From the IMG/VR virus record IMGVR_UViG_3300035190_001508, positions 1 to 62,350 of that record: a stretch of DNA of 62,350 bases; one strand, given 5' to 3'. This document shows, piece after piece, positions 47,018 to 50,828 of this stretch. The position numbers and the translations under genes are program-made. Each line of letters begins with the position of its first letter. Position 1 is the first letter of the stretch. The notes under the pieces are model-generated. The model saw only the letters and a program-made list of their open reading frames with translations. It did not search any database and had not been told where the DNA came from. The DNA comes from a virus. Taxonomy: Duplodnaviria; Caudoviricetes.

Positions 47018-47044
47018 TATTGGTAAGAGCGGATTGGTTGGCTT

Positions 47045-47106
47045 CCGCGACCACCCTTGGGGGGAGAGGGTGGTTTCGGCCCTTGCTACGGGGCCTCGTC
47101 AGGCGG
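47045..47106 (-). ncRNA. Type I hammerhead ribozyme HHR-7
   Basis: CCGC CUGACGA GGCCC-CGUAGCAA-GGGCC GAA ACCACCCU-loop-AGGGUGGU C^GCGG. Predicted cut 47049/47048. Confidence 0.92.
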
Positions 47107-47253
47107 TTAGTCGCGGTAGTCTTCGTACAAGTCTCGAAGCTTGTGTCGCAGTAGTTCAAACTCTAAAGAATCACTATCATCAGTGATTATCTCAAGCAGT
47201 TCTTTTGCAATGCTGTAGATTTCCAGCACGATTTCGTCTTTTGTTTTTTGCAT
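47107..47253 (-). CDS. Small acidic helical protein (48 aa) flanked by two hammerheads
   Basis: MQKTKDEIVLEIYSIAKELLEIITDDSDSLEFELLRHKLRDLYEDYRD. Its TAA abuts stem I of HHR-7. Confidence 0.65.
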   Translation of the reverse strand: MQKTKDEIVLEIYSIAKELLEIITDDSDSLEFELLRHKLRDLYEDYRD

Positions 47254-47278
47254 GTATTTAGTGCGGGTTGGTTGGCTT

Positions 47279-47330
47279 CCGCGACGCCTTCACGGCGTTT
47301 CGGCCCTTGCTACAGGGCCTCGTCAGGCGG
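47279..47330 (-). ncRNA. Type I hammerhead ribozyme HHR-6
   Basis: CCGC CUGACGA GGCCCU-GUAGCA-AGGGCC GAA ACGCC-GUGAA-GGCGU C^GCGG. Predicted cut 47283/47282. Confidence 0.92.
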
Positions 47331-47486
47331 TTAGTCGCAGTCGTATTTCCTTTCGAGGTGGTCCTCGTGGCACAGCTCGCAAAGGAGTTTTTGGTTTACC
47401 CTGTAAAAGCGGATTTCGTCCAGCTTAATTTGTTCGAGCGTGTGAACACACCCGCACTCGTTGCATTTGATTTTGTCTGGGTTCAT
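47331..47486 (-). CDS. Small zinc-finger protein (51 aa)
   Basis: MNPDKIKCNECG...LCELCHE. Its TAA abuts HHR-6. Confidence 0.6.
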   Translation of the reverse strand: MNPDKIKCNECGCVHTLEQIKLDEIRFYRVNQKLLCELCHEDHLERKYDCD

Positions 47487-47773
47487 TGGAATAGGTGGTT
47501 GGTTTGGAGTGTGCGTCGAATAATGCGTCTGGCTCCGGCAGGGGTTGTGTAGCCTTGGCTCCGCGGGCTTACAAACCCGCACTGGTGGAGGTCCGGCACG
47601 CGGGCACCGCGAGCTGGTAGCCCGTAGCGTAGCTGGTCGTCTGGCAGGCCGCCGCAGTAGGGGCTGTAGAGTGCCTCCACGCCGTGGCCGCAGGGGTTCA
47701 TAAGGACAACCCCGAAATAGCCGAAGCTATTCGCGTGGGTACTTACCGATAGCACATAGTAGTCTGGTTTCAT
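47483..47773 (-). CDS. Early-region hypothetical protein
   Basis: 96 aa, starting 31 nt after the HHR-5 cut. Confidence 0.6.
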   Translation of the reverse strand: MKPDYYVLSVSTHANSFGYFGVVLMNPCGHGVEALYSPYCGGLPDDQLRYGLPARGARVPDLHQCGFVSPRSQGYTTPAGARRIIRRTLQTNHLFQ

Positions 47774-47800
47774 TATTGGTTTGAGCGGATTGGTTGGCTT

Positions 47801-47859
47801 CCGCGACCGCCCGTTTTCACGGGAGGTTTCGGCCCTTGCTACGGGGCCTCGTCAGGCGG
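47801..47859 (-). ncRNA. Type I hammerhead ribozyme HHR-5
   Basis: CCGC CUGACGA GGCCC-CGUAGCAA-GGGCC GAA ACC-U-CCCG-UGAAAA-CGGG-C-GGU C^GCGG. Predicted cut 47805/47804. Confidence 0.92.
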
Positions 47860-47860
47860 G

Positions 47861-48079
47861 TTAGCGCACGAGGAAACTTTCCACATGCTCGAGGGTGGCT
47901 GGGTCCAAGTGCACCACATGGTTCCTGAACTCTGGGCCTAGCTGGTACGCCTTGTGGCGCGCCAGCTCCTGCTGTTCGGCGGTTAGGCCGGAGTCTGTCC
48001 AGCTTGGCGGCAAGCCGCGCGGGTGGACAACAACGCGGGCTCCTTGGCCGCAGTAATCGGTTAGTAGGTATGCTTCCAT
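47861..48079 (-). CDS. Early-region hypothetical protein
   Basis: 72 aa. Its TAA lies 1 nt before stem I of HHR-5. Confidence 0.6.
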   Translation of the reverse strand: MEAYLLTDYCGQGARVVVHPRGLPPSWTDSGLTAEQQELARHKAYQLGPEFRNHVVHLDPATLEHVESFLVR

Positions 48080-48092
48080 ATTTTTTTTGTTT

Positions 48093-48251
48093 CTATTGTT
48101 CGGGTTCGTAGTCTTCGTTGCAGGGATCGGGCGGTAGCGGGTCGTATTCGGGATCGCGCTGGCGGCTAGGCTGGCACGATTCGCAGTTGCTGTCTGGGTC
48201 AGGCCAGTAGCGGCTACCGCACTCGCTACACGCCCATGGTGCTTTGCTCAT
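48093..48251 (-). CDS. Small zinc-ribbon protein (52 aa)
   Basis: MSKAPWACSECG...NCESC, with an ATGA overlap. Confidence 0.55.
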   Translation of the reverse strand: MSKAPWACSECGSRYWPDPDSNCESCQPSRQRDPEYDPLPPDPCNEDYEPEQ

Positions 48252-49159: not shown

Positions 49160-49180
49160 TTTTGCTGGGTTGGTTTAGTT

Positions 49181-49396
49181 TTAAACATTGGCTGGGCCGT
49201 GCCACTTGTCCCAGAGGTCCTGTTCGGGGATCTCCTCGAGCGTGTAGTCGCGGCGGCGCGGTGGGCGGTCTCCGAAGGCATCAGCAATGGCCTTTGCTTT
49301 CGTTTCGCCGTGGCCAAGAAGGCAACGGCCAAGGTGAACCCCAGAGGGGCGTGTGACGATCCAGACGAGGCTGGTGGTGTTGTTGTTGTTGGTCAT
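49181..49396 (-). CDS. Early-region hypothetical protein (71 aa)
   Basis: MTNNNNTTSLVW..., starting 31 nt after the HHR-3 cut. Confidence 0.6.
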   Translation of the reverse strand: MTNNNNTTSLVWIVTRPSGVHLGRCLLGHGETKAKAIADAFGDRPPRRRDYTLEEIPEQDLWDKWHGPANV

Positions 49397-49423
49397 TATT
49401 TTTTTGGGCGGATTGGTTGGCTT

Positions 49424-49484
49424 CCGCGACCGCACCGCCGAAGCGGTTTGGTTTCGGTCCCTGCCACGGGAACTCATCAGGCGG
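49424..49484 (-). ncRNA. Type I hammerhead ribozyme HHR-3
   Basis: CCGC CUGAUGA GUUCCC-GUGGCA-GGGACC (one U-C mismatch) GAA ACC-AA-ACCGC-UUCG-GCGGU-GC-GGU C^GCGG. Predicted cut 49428/49427. Confidence 0.85.
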
Positions 49485-49902
49485 TGCGTAAACGGCGGGC
49501 TAGCTGGCTGGCGGTGCTGGCCGCGGTGAACTCAACCAGCTTGCCGCTAGGACGGCGGGCGGTCCACTCTACAGCGCGGTCGCGCCCGTGCTGACCAGTG
49601 CCCTTCTGGAAGCTTATGGTCCAGTTGGGGAACAGCGCGGACAGCGCGGCGTGTTCGGCCCAGTCTACGGCGTGACCAAGCGCGATGTTCTCGATCCACG
49701 CGTCGGCGGCGCGGTTGGACTTGGAGCAGGCCCAGCGCAGGCCGCTTTGGTAAGCGTGCGCGTTGATCGAAGGGTGCAGGAACCAAGTGGACCGCTGGGC
49801 CGCGCTGTGGACGACTAGGCCGCCACGGCTACGCAGTGCGGAGCACGGGCGGTACGGGTGGTTGGTGGGTTCCTTGCGGCTTTGGTAGGCTGTTTGACTC
49901 AT
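49477..49902 (-). CDS. Early-region hypothetical protein
   Basis: Likely start MSQTAY at an ATGA overlap. Its stop codon is the UGA of the HHR-3 core. Confidence 0.6.
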   Translation of the reverse strand: MSQTAYQSRKEPTNHPYRPCSALRSRGGLVVHSAAQRSTWFLHPSINAHAYQSGLRWACSKSNRAADAWIENIALGHAVDWAEHAALSALFPNWTISFQKGTGQHGRDRAVEWTARRPSGKLVEFTAASTASQLARRLRTA

Positions 49903-50072
49903 GGTTGTGGTTGGTTGGATTTGAGGTTGTCCACGATCCGCGCAAGGCGGAGCAGTTCTTCCCGTGCAGAGCACAGGCTTTCGTAGCTAGCTTCTGGGTT
50001 CTGGAGCACCTCGCAGTAAACCTGCACGGCGAACTCCCAAGTGGGAGTTGTGTCGATTGTTTTTGTTTTCAT
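49899..50072 (-). CDS. Small hypothetical protein (57 aa)
   Basis: MKTKTIDTTPTWEFAVQVYCEVLQNPEASYESLCSAREELLRLARIVDNLKSNQPQP. Confidence 0.65.
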   Translation of the reverse strand: MKTKTIDTTPTWEFAVQVYCEVLQNPEASYESLCSAREELLRLARIVDNLKSNQPQP

Positions 50073-50096
50073 TGTATTATTTTTTGTGGTGTTGGT

Positions 50097-50342
50097 TCAT
50101 AGCCAAGGAAGGTACACTCCGCGGTTTTTTTCGATCCGATCAACGGCGTCAGCTTTGGCGTCTTCGATTGTGGGATACTCGAAGCGGTAGCCGTTTATGA
50201 CTAGCCGAACGGGCTCGCTCTCGCGCCAGAGCACACCAACGCCAAAGCGTTGGCCGCATCGCGTGAAACCGCCGAAAGATTGAGAGTATTTCAGCCCGTC
50301 AATCGTGCCAGTTTCTGTTTTCCATTCTATTTCAAGTTTCAT
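50097..50342 (-). CDS. Early-region hypothetical protein
   Basis: 81 aa, starting 30 nt after the HHR-2 cut. Confidence 0.6.
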   Translation of the reverse strand: MKLEIEWKTETGTIDGLKYSQSFGGFTRCGQRFGVGVLWRESEPVRLVINGYRFEYPTIEDAKADAVDRIEKNRGVYLPWL

Positions 50343-50367
50343 TATTTTTTGGGCGGATTGGTTGGCT

Positions 50368-50428
50368 TCCGCGACCGCCCGTTTTCACGGGAGGTTTCGG
50401 CCCTTGCCAAGGGCCATCATCAGACGGA
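50368..50428 (-). ncRNA. Type I hammerhead ribozyme HHR-2 (extra U after CUGAUGA)
   Basis: UCCGU CUGAUGA U GGCCC-UUGGCAA-GGGCC GAA ACC-U-CCCG-UGAAAA-CGGG-C-GGU C^GCGGA. Predicted cut 50373/50372. Confidence 0.88.
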
Positions 50429-50743
50429 CTTCTCGAGGCGGGCCTTGACCCGCGAGGCGTTGTGATCGCCGCAGTACAAGGGCACGCCGTACGGCTTGCC
50501 GTCAGCATCGACTGGCGCGTACCACTCGAGGCTGGCGAACTCCTCCTCGTTGGGGAGGTAGAACAGGCTGACCTGCTCGCTGGCGGCTTCCCATTCGCTG
50601 GAGCCCAGCTTTACACCCATGCCGCTGGGACCGCGGAGGCCCAGCTTGGCGATTGCTTCCCATGGCGAAGGCGCGACGGCCCAGCCCAAGTAGTTGACCG
50701 CCAAGTAGGCGGCCCCAGCATTGTTCACGTATGCTTTTTTCAT
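50420..50743 (-). CDS. Early-region hypothetical protein
   Basis: 107 aa, starting 30 nt after the HHR-1 cut. Its stop codon is the UGA of the HHR-2 core. Confidence 0.65.
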   Translation of the reverse strand: MKKAYVNNAGAAYLAVNYLGWAVAPSPWEAIAKLGLRGPSGMGVKLGSSEWEAASEQVSLFYLPNEEEFASLEWYAPVDADGKPYGVPLYCGDHNASRVKARLEKSV

Positions 50744-50768
50744 ATTTAAAAAGCGGAGGGGTTTGGCT

Positions 50769-50828
50769 TCCGCGACCGCCCGTTTTCACGGGAGGTTTCG
50801 GCCCTTGCCAAGGGCCTCATCAGGCGAA
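50769..50828 (-). ncRNA. Type I hammerhead ribozyme HHR-1
   Basis: UUCGC CUGAUGA GGCCC-UUGGCAA-GGGCC GAA ACC-U-CCCG-UGAAAA-CGGG-C-GGU C^GCGGA. Predicted cut 50774/50773. Confidence 0.93.

What the first reader, a model, noticed from the sequence alone, without database searches (positions are those of the whole stretch)
47018..50773. Every hammerhead cut yields a standard 29-32 nt leader that can refold into a 5'-terminal hairpin
Seen: the 3' products start GCGGAAGCCAA(A)CC..(U/C)CCGC, then a mostly A-rich spacer, then AUG. Leader lengths are 30, 30, 31, 32, 31, 29 and 31 nt for HHR-1 to HHR-7. The GCGG(A) that forms stem I can alternatively pair with the downstream (U)CCGC in all seven copies, including the more diverged HHR-1. 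No Shine-Dalgarno is present. Inference: this is a conserved switch that releases the product and prevents re-ligation, protects the 5'-OH end from decay, and provides a uniform initiation site. It could also inhibit cleavage if it folds first.
Basis: partly seen in the sequence, partly recalled or inferred. Interest (0 to 1): 0.75.

Follow-up and report, generated by a model that had tools for sequence, protein, structure and literature searches.

The report
Phage hammerhead products start with a hairpin
Seven self-cutting hammerhead RNAs in a phage operon each leave the next gene with a nearly identical 29-32 base leader whose first bases can snap into a small end hairpin, a design that recurs with matching base changes in many other phages and may explain how such cuts are made final and the new RNA end protected.

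Summary
Seven type-I hammerheads lie on the minus strand of this 62-kb phage record. Their 3' products start at 50773, 50372, 49427, 48929, 47804, 47282 and 47048, and the leaders are 30, 30, 31, 32, 31, 29 and 31 nt.

Leader anatomy:
- nt 1-4/5 (GCGG[A]): 3' strand of stem I
- nt 7-11 (GCCAA): pairs with loop II, the known pseudoknot type
- nt 16/17-20/21 ([U]CCGC): a second partner for nt 1-5
- then 8-11 G-poor nt, then AUG

The alternative hairpin is not just a local repeat artefact. In 194 clusters of phage type-I hammerheads, the exact complement of product nt 1-4 lies in nt 8-30 in 79, against 14-21 in controls. It changes with stem I (GCGG>CCGC, GUGG>CCAC, ACGG>CCGU), and the helix starts exactly at nt 1.

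Best reading: a bistable strand that serves the ribozyme before the cut and becomes a blunt 5'-terminal hairpin afterwards, a natural RiboJ-like cassette. Release, anti-ligation and end protection are inferred, not shown. Absence of Shine-Dalgarno is genome-wide, not special to these leaders. I found no description of this hairpin in six literature searches. No cleavage was observed in RNA data.

The parts
50774..50828 (-). HHR-1 ribozyme body: stem I 5' strand UUCGC, core CUGAUGA, stem II (loop UUGGC), GAAA, stem III, C17 at 50774
   Evidence: The upstream ORF's stop codon (50822-50820) is U4-G5-A6 of the core.
50744..50773 (-). HHR-1 3' product leader, 30 nt. The head, nt 1-21 (50773-50753), is GCGGA...UCCGC. 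AUG at 50743-50741.
   Evidence: Isolated hairpin -5.4 kcal/mol, but P(pairs) is only 0.09 in leader + 40 nt.
50373..50428 (-). HHR-2 ribozyme body (core CUGAUGA plus an extra U before stem II; loop II UUGGC)
   Evidence: Upstream stop codon at 50422-50420 lies in the core.
50343..50372 (-). HHR-2 leader, 30 nt. Hairpin head 50372-50353. AUG at 50342-50340.
   Evidence: -5.3 kcal/mol; P 0.97-0.98
49428..49484 (-). HHR-3 ribozyme body (loop II GUGGC; stem III has a 2x2 internal loop)
   Evidence: My own descriptor missed it. Upstream stop codon at 49479-49477 lies in the core.
49397..49427 (-). HHR-3 leader, 31 nt. Hairpin head 49427-49408. AUG at 49396-49394.
   Evidence: P 0.99-1.0
48930..48978 (-). 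HHR-4 ribozyme body (extra U after A9; loop II GUGGC)
   Evidence: Upstream stop codon at 48973-48971 lies in the core.
48898..48929 (-). HHR-4 leader, 32 nt. Hairpin head 48929-48909 (21 nt). AUG at 48897-48895.
   Evidence: -5.2 kcal/mol; P 0.75-0.76
47805..47859 (-). HHR-5 ribozyme body (core CUGACGA; loop II GUAGC, a weak pseudoknot)
   Evidence: Upstream UAA at 47863-47861 lies just 5' of the stem I strand.
47774..47804 (-). HHR-5 leader, 31 nt. Hairpin head 47804-47785. AUG at 47773-47771.
   Evidence: P 0.99
47283..47330 (-). HHR-6 ribozyme body (core CUGACGA; loop II GUAGC)
   Evidence: Upstream UAA at 47333-47331 abuts stem I.
47254..47282 (-). HHR-6 leader, 29 nt. Hairpin head 47282-47263 (4 bp, CCCGC variant). 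AUG at 47253-47251.
   Evidence: -3.9 kcal/mol; P 0.9
47049..47106 (-). HHR-7 ribozyme body (core CUGACGA; loop II GUAGC; long stem III)
   Evidence: Upstream UAA at 47109-47107 abuts stem I.
47018..47048 (-). HHR-7 leader, 31 nt. Hairpin head 47048-47029. AUG at 47017-47015.
   Evidence: P 1.0

Best explanation
Each of the seven elements is a type-I hammerhead placed exactly between two cistrons of a long minus-strand operon of small phage genes.

What each part of the cut-off RNA does:
- nt 1-4/5 (GCGG[A]) first pair with the CCGC just 5' of the core, forming stem I.
- nt 7-11 (GCCAA) pair with loop II, forming the pseudoknot that holds stems I and II together.
- A third element 5-6 nt further on, (U)CCGC, is a second partner for nt 1-5.

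Proposed sequence of events:
- Before the cut the two pairings compete and are close in energy.
- After the cut, stem I and the pseudoknot are held only between two molecules. The intramolecular hairpin then wins, pulls the new 5' end off the ribozyme and leaves a blunt 5'-terminal stem-loop on a 5'-OH RNA.
- An unstructured, G-poor 8-11 nt spacer and the AUG follow.
- The upstream fragment keeps the ribozyme's stems II and III at its 3' end. Every processed mRNA is therefore born with structure at both ends and a standard head.

Shown here: the anatomy, the competing pairings, and comparative evidence that the second partner is selected as a complement of nt 1-4.

Inferred: that the ribozymes cleave in vivo, that the hairpin forms after cleavage, and that its benefit is irreversibility or release, end protection, or insulation of the initiation region.
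For: 1. Hammerhead identity. All seven have the full core, an open stem I, and closed stems II and III of unrelated sequence. RNAalifold recovers the three-stem fold, with 4 of 17 pairs showing compensatory changes.

2. Hairpin prediction. It is the minimum-energy structure of the head in 7 of 7, and has P 0.75-1.0 in context in 6 of 7.

3. Near-isoenergetic competition before the cut. The hairpin state is 0.7-3.5 kcal/mol below the stem I state when the pseudoknot is ignored. The pseudoknot duplex is worth -6.5 to -7.6 kcal/mol in HHR-1 to -4.

4. Conservation within the phage family. In 25 of 25 copies from related contigs (L083, L292, L340, L343, L344) the same 20/21-nt head is kept and leaders are 28-32 nt, while stems II and III and the spacer vary. 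The variant heads change loop positions, never CCGC.

5. Complement of nt 1-4 across phages. My descriptor found 370 type-I hammerheads in the window and 331 viral loci, giving 194 clusters. The exact complement of product nt 1-4 lies in nt 8-30 in 79 of 194 clusters. Controls give 21 (reversed tetramer), 18 (same search 60 nt further on) and 14 (nt 31-60).

6. Covariation with stem I. CCGC occurs in 45 of 66 GCGG clusters, 5 of 29 GUGG and 0 of 18 ACGG. CCGU occurs in 7 of 18 ACGG against 4 of 66 and 2 of 29. Fisher p is 6.6e-8, 4.9e-6, 0.0013 and 0.018.

7. Alignment not fitted to structure. On a MAFFT alignment of 119 of the 194 cluster representatives (the four commonest stem I classes), the compact pairing nt 1-4 with nt 9-12 has 68.5% paired cells against 64.0 +/- 1.1 shuffled (0 of 500). 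The covariation score is 0.179 against 0.144 (1 of 500), and both exceed every slid control. Pair types are G-C 33 / A-U 8 and C-G 28 / U-A 20.

8. Register. The helix begins at the very first nucleotide. The signal is 79 v 21 at offset 0, 42 v 26 at offset 1, and gone by offset 3.

9. Ensemble folding. Mean P(5' end locally paired) is 0.60 against 0.28 with shuffled leaders. P is 0.5 or more in 107 v 25 of 194 (Wilcoxon p about 1e-19).

10. Pairing rather than duplication. Where stem I has a G.U pair, the leader matches the complement of the product strand in 8 of 23 clusters and copies the 5' strand in 3 of 23, with 1 doing both.

11. Background. CCGC occurs in 9 of 61 chance matches to GCGGAAGCCAA in bacterial genomes.

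12. Precedent. The engineered RiboJ part leaves a hairpin on the product and raises expression (passages read, PMC6206723).
Against: - No cleavage, hairpin or half-life was observed. RNA data gave only short contigs of relatives.
- No Rfam hammerhead model reaches its gathering score: best 24.6 bits against 56.3, and 18 against 48.5.
- The window's hairpin is weak: 4-5 bp with a 10-12 nt loop, -3.9 to -5.4 kcal/mol, z only -1.4 to -2.4. For HHR-1 it is predicted to lose to a coding-region pairing (P 0.09).
- The element is not universal. 115 of 194 clusters lack an exact arm.
- Allowing G.U makes the statistic noisy: 117 of 194 against 74.8 +/- 6.0.
- Two of the class comparisons are not significant: CCAC in GUGG v GCGG, p 0.06, and v ACGG, p 0.23. 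CCAC also arises from the pseudoknot strand GCCAC.
- Clusters are not phylogenetically independent, and the three scans were biased in stem I and stem II sequence.
- Within this phage family the head is invariant, so the family gives no covariation. Such invariance also hints at a sequence-specific role that base pairing alone does not explain.
- Presence of the arm does not track a nearby start signal: SD-like motifs follow 61 of 79 clusters with the arm and 96 of 115 without.
Confidence: 0.55

Rival explanations
1. The hairpin acts mainly before the cut, as an attenuator. By sequestering the stem I 3' strand it sets how fast, or what fraction of, each junction is cleaved. It may act together with ribosomes that terminate on the stop codon built into or abutting the ribozyme, so the polycistronic-to-monocistronic ratio is tuned junction by junction.
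For: - The hairpin state is predicted 0.7-3.5 kcal/mol more stable than the stem I state when the pseudoknot is ignored, in 7 of 7 copies.
- The pseudoknot is strong in HHR-1 to -4 (-6.5 to -7.6 kcal/mol) and weak in HHR-5 to -7 (-1.8), which predicts graded activity.
- The arm overlaps the pseudoknot strand in 32 of the 50 clusters that have both.
- The stop codon of the upstream ORF is U4-G5-A6 of the core in HHR-1 to -4 and abuts stem I in HHR-5 to -7.
- A stop triplet lies within 12 nt 5' of C3 in 137 of 194 clusters, against 63 of 194 in a control window.
Against: - The helix starts exactly at product nt 1. A post-cleavage end structure predicts that register; an attenuator does not need it.
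- Energies omit tertiary contacts, so the real balance is unknown.
- No expression data were available.
Confidence: 0.17
2. The downstream CCGC has no function of its own. The roughly 105-nt unit (ribozyme plus head) is a repeat spread by duplication, recombination or gene conversion. The complementarity is inherited baggage or a short direct repeat of the stem I 5' strand left by the way such cassettes move.
For: - The seven heads are nearly identical, and the same head recurs in 25 of 25 copies of related phages.
- Contigs of relatives join different cassettes at hammerhead modules: 47766>49400, 49470>47864, 50048>47263. The modules are therefore recombination boundaries.
- The arm is identical to the stem I 5' strand whenever stem I is fully Watson-Crick.
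Against: - Within the repeats, stems II and III and the spacer diverge freely while the head does not. Homogenisation would not be so selective.
- The arm covaries with stem I across unrelated phages with different loops and spacings.
- In G.U cases it follows the complement of the product strand (8 of 23) more often than it copies the 5' strand (3 of 23).
Confidence: 0.13
3. The head is conserved for a sequence-specific reason other than the hairpin. It could be part of the active ribozyme's tertiary structure (a longer or alternative-register pseudoknot, since CCAA occurs twice). It could also be a binding site for a ribosomal, host or phage protein that promotes SD-less initiation.
For: - All 20-21 nt, including positions that neither stem I, the pseudoknot nor the hairpin arm needs (AA at nt 5-6, CCAAU at nt 12-16), are nearly invariant in 32 copies from this family.
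- Pairing of loop II with leader nt 5-16 is strongly supported: 4 or more WC pairs in 103 of 194 clusters, against 32.6 +/- 5.1 with swapped loops.
- The spacing of head to AUG is constrained to 28-32 nt.
Against: - In other phages the arm lies at variable distance from the pseudoknot strand, from -5 to +16 nt. It changes with stem I, not with loop II.
- nt 1-4 are occupied by stem I in the active fold, so complementarity to them cannot serve that fold.
Confidence: 0.1

Closest known systems
Type-I hammerhead ribozymes with a stem I/loop II pseudoknot, clustered between genes of prophages (Perreault et al. 2011, PMC3088659; passages read)
   Same: - Same core and open stem I, with a pseudoknot that ties loop II to the strand beyond stem I.
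- Several copies flank single genes or short gene blocks.
- Processing of long phage transcripts into gene-length mRNAs was already proposed there.
   Different: - The passages I read mention no second partner for the stem I 3' strand and no hairpin on the 3' product. Figures and supplements were not visible.
- Here the array is seven copies with an identical stem I, pseudoknot strand and head.
- The upstream stop codon sits inside or against the ribozyme.
RiboJ, the engineered ribozyme insulator: sTRSV hammerhead plus a 23-nt hairpin (Clifton et al. 2018, PMC6206723; passages read)
   Same: - Self-cleavage removes upstream RNA and leaves a standard hairpin-containing 5' end in front of the translation start.
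- The hairpin is credited there with raising mRNA stability and exposing the ribosome binding site.
   Different: - RiboJ is man-made, from a plant satellite RNA hammerhead of a different topology. Its hairpin is a separate add-on that does not compete with stem I.
- In the phage element the hairpin reuses the stem I strand, and elsewhere also the pseudoknot strand, so it is a two-state switch.
5'-terminal stabilising stem-loops of bacterial mRNAs (ompA-type leaders, synthetic 5' hairpin cassettes) and the opposite case of the glmS ribozyme, whose 5'-OH product is degraded by RNase J1. Both are recalled knowledge, apart from the Carrier and Keasling reference, which I saw only in the reference list of PMC6206723.
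   Same: The stem-loop starts at or within a few nt of the 5' end. That is the geometry known to hinder 5'-end-dependent decay, and here the helix starts at nt 1.
   Different: - Those ends are triphosphorylated primary ends, whereas this one would be a ribozyme-made 5'-OH.
- Stabilisation was not tested here.
- The host and its RNases are unknown.
RAGATH-1 / pseudoknot hammerhead (Rfam RF03152; crystal structure paper PMC11300833, passages read)
   Same: It is the best-scoring hammerhead-like Rfam model at HHR-1 (24.6 bits). It is also a type-I topology found with phage-like genes.
   Different: - In RAGATH-1 an upstream stem-loop replaces helix II by a pseudoknot.
- The window's copies have a normal stem II and score far below that model's threshold of 56.3 bits.

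Membership tests
Hammerhead ribozyme, type I | Conserved core C3-U4-G5-A6-N7-G8-A9 ... G12-A13-A14 ... A15.1/U16.1, with H17 at the cut | tested here: met
   All seven have CUGA(U/C)GA, GAAAC and GUC in order. HHR-2 and -4 carry one extra U between A9 and stem II. This variant is common in the phage set. I recall it from viroid hammerheads, but that comes from no call.
Hammerhead ribozyme, type I | Three helices around the core, stems II and III closed and stem I open, supported by covariation | tested here: met
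   The RNAalifold consensus of the 7 copies gives stems I, II and III. 4 of 17 pairs have changes on both sides. Stem III sequences are unrelated between copies.
Hammerhead ribozyme, type I | Score at or above the Rfam gathering threshold of a hammerhead model | tested here: not met
   No hammerhead hit at gathering thresholds. In E-value mode, RAGATH-1-hammerhead scores 24.6 bits (threshold 56.3) at HHR-1 and Hammerhead_3 scores 18 bits (threshold 48.5) at HHR-6. The other five get no listed hit. This is an annotation threshold, not a structural criterion.
Hammerhead ribozyme, type I | Self-cleavage 3' of H17, giving 2',3'-cyclic phosphate and 5'-OH ends | not testable with these tools
   The only RNA-library data were short low-depth contigs of relatives. 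No starts or ends could be read.
Pseudoknot-stabilised hammerheads (Perreault 2011) | At least about 4 Watson-Crick pairs between loop II and the strand beyond stem I | tested here: inconclusive
   Met in HHR-1 and -2 (UUGGC/GCCAA, -7.3 to -7.6 kcal/mol) and HHR-3 and -4 (UGGC/GCCA, -6.5). Only 2 contiguous pairs in HHR-5 to -7 (GUAGC, -1.8). Across phages, 103 of 194 clusters have 4 or more pairs, against 32.6 +/- 5.1 with swapped loops.
Ribozyme-plus-hairpin insulator (RiboJ-like), by way of working only | After cleavage a hairpin remains at the 5' end of the product, upstream of the start signal, giving every downstream gene the same head | tested here: met
   Met by prediction only: the hairpin is the minimum-energy fold in 7 of 7 heads, P is 0.75 or more in 6 of 7 in context, and the seven heads are nearly identical. 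Formation in real RNA was not tested.
5'-terminal stabilising stem-loop | The helix begins at or within a few nt of the 5' end, and the mRNA half-life rises | tested here: inconclusive
   The geometry is met: the complementarity signal peaks at nt 1 (79 v 21) and fades by offset 3. Half-life is not testable here.

The most novel reading that the evidence does not exclude
Phage type-I hammerheads are three-part, translation-gated processing cassettes. The strand just 3' of the cut toggles between the ribozyme (stem I plus pseudoknot) and a blunt 5' hairpin. The toggle is biased by the ribosome that terminates on a stop codon built into the catalytic core (UGA = U4-G5-A6) or abutting stem I.

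Upstream translation would then decide whether and when the next cistron is severed. The severed mRNA is born with a protective, standardised head. Because all junctions share one stem I and one pseudoknot strand, the hairpin would also stop the fragments from re-ligating to each other or into circles.

This would be a general, undescribed rule for what bacterial and phage hammerheads are for.
Probability: 0.2. Interest if true: 0.8.

Novelty: new variant of a known kind. Interest (0 to 1): 0.62.

Why it matters
Thousands of hammerheads are known in bacteria and phages, but a 2019 review still calls their purpose undefined (PMC6765202, passages read).

If the 3' product is built to fold into a terminal hairpin that reuses the ribozyme's own stem I strand, three things follow:
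- The cut is a designed, irreversible mRNA-maturation step rather than a by-product.
- The element can be probed with simple mutants (arm, compensatory, pseudoknot).
- Nature has its own version of the RiboJ insulator, already adapted to hosts with and without Shine-Dalgarno initiation.

It also gives annotators a third signature, the complement of product nt 1-4 within about 30 nt, for recognising functional phage hammerheads that Rfam thresholds miss.

Tried and rejected
- Rfam at gathering thresholds gave only a tRNA. E-value mode gave sub-threshold hammerhead hits at 2 of 7 copies.
- blastn of 46000-52000 against 50,697 deposited phages found no match, so no annotated relative was available.
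- Extended stem I: I looked by eye for pairing beyond 4-5 bp between the 5' flank and the leader and found none.
- The near match at 59004-59017 has no core upstream and is chance.
- Statistic with G.U allowed (4 or more bp from nt 1): controls gave 74-95 of 194, too permissive. I rely on exact complements instead.
- Genome scan for CGAAAC..GUCGCGGAAGCCAA in one genome per prokaryote species: 60 stretches (61 rows), none with a hammerhead core within 45 nt upstream. All are chance matches, mostly inside what look like coding sequences. No prophage copy was found and no host could be named. I used them only as a background for CCGC (9 of 61).
- Sequencing runs: 3 runs held 5-9% of the sampled words. 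Two are probably DNA, and all are kept as contigs. No molecule ends and no evidence for or against cleavage.
- Function of the genes behind each cut: of the 10 ORFs scanned with PHROGs and Pfam (the seven downstream ORFs plus three neighbours), 1 hit an unnamed PHROG (phrog_4158) and 1 gave a sub-threshold DUF1731 match. Nothing usable.
- Link between arm and nearby SD-like motif: none (61 of 79 v 96 of 115).
- Link between arm and pseudoknot: weak (odds ratio 2.0, p 0.02).
- Literature: six full-text searches and passages of five papers gave no description of a 5'-terminal refolding hairpin on phage type-I hammerhead products. Figures and supplements could not be seen, notably the alignments and Figure S4 of PMC3088659. 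Subscription papers such as Jimenez et al. 2011 are not in the library. 'Not in print' therefore holds only for these searches.

Full report
WHAT IS THERE

The window is a complete or nearly complete virus record of 62,350 bases (CheckV 99%). It encodes a DNA polymerase, helicase, primase-like protein and large terminase, so it is a tailed dsDNA phage. From about 52.3 kb down to a bidirectional terminator-like hairpin at 44242-44277, the minus strand carries some thirty small ORFs.

In the stretch 47.0-50.8 kb, the 14-mer GTCGCGGAAGCCAA occurs seven times exactly, all on the minus strand. Chance expectation is 0.73, and none of 100 shuffles reaches the observed count. An eighth two-mismatch match at 59004 has no ribozyme beside it.

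Each copy is preceded by CUGA(U/C)GA, a GC-rich hairpin, GAAAC, a second hairpin and GUC. That is a hammerhead whose stems II and III are closed and whose stem I is open, which makes it type I.

Rfam does not call them at its thresholds. The best sub-threshold scores are 24.6 and 18 bits. But the core is complete in all seven. The stem III sequences are unrelated between copies yet all pair. RNAalifold on the seven copies returns the three-stem hammerhead fold, with compensatory changes in 4 of 17 pairs.

THE OBSERVATION

Cleavage after C17 would give products starting at 50773, 50372, 49427, 48929, 47804, 47282 and 47048. The first AUG, which opens a listed ORF in every case, follows after 30, 30, 31, 32, 31, 29 and 31 nt.

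All seven products begin GCGGAAGCCAA(A)CC and have (U/C)CCGC ending at nt 20 or 21. The head folds into GCGG(A)/(U)CCGC in all seven, at -3.9 to -5.4 kcal/mol. With 40 nt of coding sequence added, the pairs keep probability 0.75-1.0 in six copies. In HHR-1 they fall to 0.09, because a coding-region CCGC competes.

The hairpin is small, and its z-scores against shuffles are only -1.4 to -2.4. On the window alone the case would be weak.

ANATOMY OF THE LEADER

Stem I is only 4-5 bp: product nt 1-4/5 with the CCGC, UUCGC or UCCGU just 5' of the core.

Product nt 7-11 (GCCAA) are complementary to loop II. The loop is UUGGC in HHR-1 and -2 and GUGGC in HHR-3 and -4, with duplex energies of -6.5 to -7.6 kcal/mol. 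It is GUAGC in HHR-5 to -7, which leaves two contiguous pairs (-1.8).

Such a pseudoknot between stems I and II is a known, experimentally supported feature of many hammerheads of all three types (PMC3088659, passages read). In my phage sample, loop II and leader nt 5-16 share 4 or more Watson-Crick pairs in 103 of 194 clusters. The figure is 32.6 +/- 5.1 when loops are dealt to other ribozymes, and 20 for leader nt 31-42.

So the first 11-13 nt of the 'leader' are part of the ribozyme. What remains to explain is the (U)CCGC further on. It cannot pair with nt 1-5 while stem I exists.

IS THE SECOND PARTNER SELECTED?

Within the phage's own family the answer is only suggestive. Contigs L083, L292, L340, L343 and L344 hold 25 further copies with the same 20/21-nt head and leaders of 28-32 nt, while stems II and III and the spacer differ. 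The few variant heads (HHR-1, HHR-6, L341) change loop positions, never CCGC.

For a real test I collected hammerheads without constraining the leader, using three scans of IMG/VR. One fixed GUC-GCGG. Two fixed a common stem II and required product nt 1 not to be G, or nt 2 not to be C.

A descriptor of my own required the core, stems II and III with at most one mismatch, and a stem I of 4 or more pairs. It found 370 hammerheads in the window and 331 loci. It recovered 6 of the window's 7, missing HHR-3 because of an internal loop in stem III. Greedy clustering gave 194 clusters.

Results on these clusters:

- The exact complement of product nt 1-4 lies in nt 8-30 in 79 of 194 clusters. Controls give 21 for the reversed tetramer, 18 for the same search 60 nt further downstream and 14 for nt 31-60. 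Over all 370 hits the figures are 183 against 46, 40 and 25.
- The arm changes with stem I. CCGC is present in 45 of 66 GCGG clusters but in 5 of 29 GUGG and 0 of 18 ACGG clusters. CCGU is present in 7 of 18 ACGG clusters against 4 of 66 and 2 of 29. CCAC is present in 14 of 29 GUGG clusters. Fisher tests give 6.6e-8, 4.9e-6, 0.0013 and 0.018. The two CCAC contrasts are not significant (0.06, 0.23), partly because the pseudoknot strand often reads GCCAC.
- The complementarity is anchored at the very end of the product: 79 v 21 for nt 1-4, 42 v 26 for nt 2-5, 24 v 12 for nt 3-6, and nothing beyond.
- MAFFT is blind to structure. On its alignment of the first 26 nt of 119 of the 194 cluster representatives (all those of the four commonest stem I classes), the compact helix nt 1-4/nt 9-12 has 68.5% paired cells against 64.0 +/- 1.1 in shuffles (0 of 500). 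Its covariation score is 0.179 against 0.144 (1 of 500), and it beats all six slid controls. Pair types are G-C 33 / A-U 8 / G-U 7 at the terminal pair and C-G 28 / U-A 20 at the next.
- In partition-function folds of the first 45 nt of the product, the two terminal nucleotides are locally paired with mean probability 0.60, against 0.28 when nt 6-45 are shuffled. 107 against 25 of 194 reach 0.5.
- As an outside background, 61 chance matches to the same first 11 nt in bacterial genomes, none beside a hammerhead core, have CCGC in nt 8-30 in 9 cases.
- The arm could instead be a direct repeat of the stem I 5' strand. In the 23 clusters where stem I contains a G.U pair, the two hypotheses differ. 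The leader holds the complement of the product strand in 8 and a copy of the 5' strand in 3, with one holding both. The numbers are small but point to pairing.

Caveats:

- 115 of 194 clusters have no exact arm.
- With G.U allowed the background is high (117 v 74.8 +/- 6.0).
- Clusters share ancestry.
- The scans fixed parts of the ribozyme.

HOW IT PROBABLY WORKS

Constrained folding shows that the state with stems II and III plus the hairpin is 0.7-3.5 kcal/mol more stable than the state with stems I, II and III, in all seven copies. The pseudoknot and tertiary contacts are not modelled. They would add up to about 7 kcal/mol to the ribozyme state in HHR-1 to -4 but little in HHR-5 to -7.

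The two states are therefore close before cleavage. After cleavage the ribozyme holds the product only through 4-5 + 2-5 intermolecular pairs, while the hairpin is intramolecular, so the product should flip.

In 32 of the 50 clusters elsewhere that have both features, the arm overlaps the pseudoknot strand by 1-5 nt. The hairpin then excludes the pseudoknot as well as stem I. Typical compact forms are GCGG-GAAA-CCGC or ACGG-GAAA-CCGU.

I infer three benefits, none tested:

- The cut becomes irreversible. This matters in an array whose seven junctions share one stem I and one pseudoknot strand, so any product could dock on any ribozyme. Perreault et al. raised ligation, splicing or circles as possibilities and did not detect them.
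- The 5'-OH end is buried in a blunt helix, the geometry that (recalled knowledge) hinders 5'-end-dependent RNases.
- The GC-rich ribozyme remnant is locked away from the initiation region.

The engineered RiboJ part works this way and raises expression (PMC6206723). Type-I topology also leaves stems II and III on the 3' end of the upstream fragment, so each processed mRNA has structure at both ends.

- Absence of Shine-Dalgarno is not a feature of these leaders. Only 1 of 54 ATG-ORFs of 80 aa or more in the genome has an SD-like motif, and upstream regions are G-poor throughout. This suggests a host that initiates without SD. I could not name the host.
- The uniform length is real: 28-32 nt in 32 of 32 family copies. 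It amounts to a 20/21-nt head plus an 8-12 nt spacer.
- The genes served are small ORFs without recognisable families.

WHAT IS NOT SHOWN

No cleavage, no hairpin and no effect on decay or translation has been shown. Public RNA libraries held only 5-9% of the sampled words, as short contigs of relatives.

NOVELTY

The following are already known: type-I hammerheads, their pseudoknots, their clustering between phage genes, and the idea of processing polycistronic RNA.

I did not find the following in six full-text searches and the passages read:

- a conserved second partner for the stem I 3' strand that turns the 3' product into a blunt 5' hairpin;
- its covariation with stem I;
- its overlap with the pseudoknot strand.

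Figures, supplements and subscription papers could not be checked. I rate it a new variant of a known kind, of moderate to good interest, because it gives a concrete, cheap experimental handle on the open question of what phage hammerheads are for.

Noticed in passing
window 50820-50822, 50420-50422, 49477-49479, 48971-48973 (minus); 47861-47863, 47331-47333, 47107-47109 (minus): The stop codon of the ORF upstream of each hammerhead is part of, or touches, the ribozyme. In HHR-1 to -4 it is the UGA formed by U4-G5-A6 of the catalytic core, so the stem I 5' strand is coding. In HHR-5 to -7 (core CUGACGA) it is a UAA just 5' of the stem I strand (directly abutting it in HHR-6 and -7). A terminating ribosome would cover stem I and the core. 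Across phages a stop triplet lies within 12 nt 5' of C3 in 137 of 194 clusters, against 63 of 194 in a control window.
   Followed up: partly
window 51500-51582 (minus): Sub-threshold but clear match to the type-P1 twister ribozyme (38.1 bits, threshold 67.2, E 1.5e-5) at the head of the hammerhead array. An AUG at 51494-51492 follows 5 nt after it and opens the ORF that ends in the core of HHR-1. The operon seems to mix two ribozyme classes.
   Followed up: partly
window 47805-47859, 47283-47330, 47049-47106 versus 48930-50828 (minus): There are two sub-types of copy. HHR-1 to -4 have core CUGAUGA and loop II (U/G)UGGC, which pairs well with the leader's GCCAA. HHR-5 to -7 have core CUGACGA and loop II GUAGC, with a mismatch in the middle of the pseudoknot (-1.8 kcal/mol). 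Related phages also mix matched and mismatched loops (GUCGC). This may give graded cleavage along the operon.
   Followed up: partly
window 47263/50048, 47766/49400, 47864/49470: Contigs of related phages in two runs (probably DNA) join different gene cassettes at or next to hammerhead modules. The repeated ribozyme-plus-head units therefore mark the boundaries of shuffled gene cassettes (tables 5 and 5c).
   Followed up: no
window 47018-50773, heads of all seven leaders; L083, L292, L340, L343, L344: The head is invariant even at positions that no proposed pairing needs (AA at nt 5-6, CCAAU at nt 12-16), and CCAA occurs twice in a row. This is unexplained. It could be an alternative pseudoknot register or a protein or ribosome contact.
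   Followed up: no
window 31102-44238 (+): A single open reading frame of 4378 aa (GTG start) fills a fifth of the phage genome. It ends at the bidirectional terminator-like hairpin at 44242-44277 that also closes the minus-strand operon.
   Followed up: no
window 53558-53627 (+): A long, nearly perfect hairpin (about 27 pairs), picked up only as spurious weak matches to microRNA precursor models (MIR2670 33.4 bits, let-7 25.1 bits). It lies between the plus-strand ORFs 52523-53143 and 53535-54167.
   Followed up: no
window 23530-23600 (minus): One tRNA gene (Rfam tRNA, 69 bits), the only Rfam hit at gathering thresholds.
   Followed up: no
whole window: Shine-Dalgarno-like motifs are almost absent upstream of ORFs (1 of 54), and the 20 nt before starts are G-poor and A-enriched (A 0.34 against 0.25 genome-wide, GC 0.52). 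This points to a host with SD-independent initiation. The host was not identified.
   Followed up: partly
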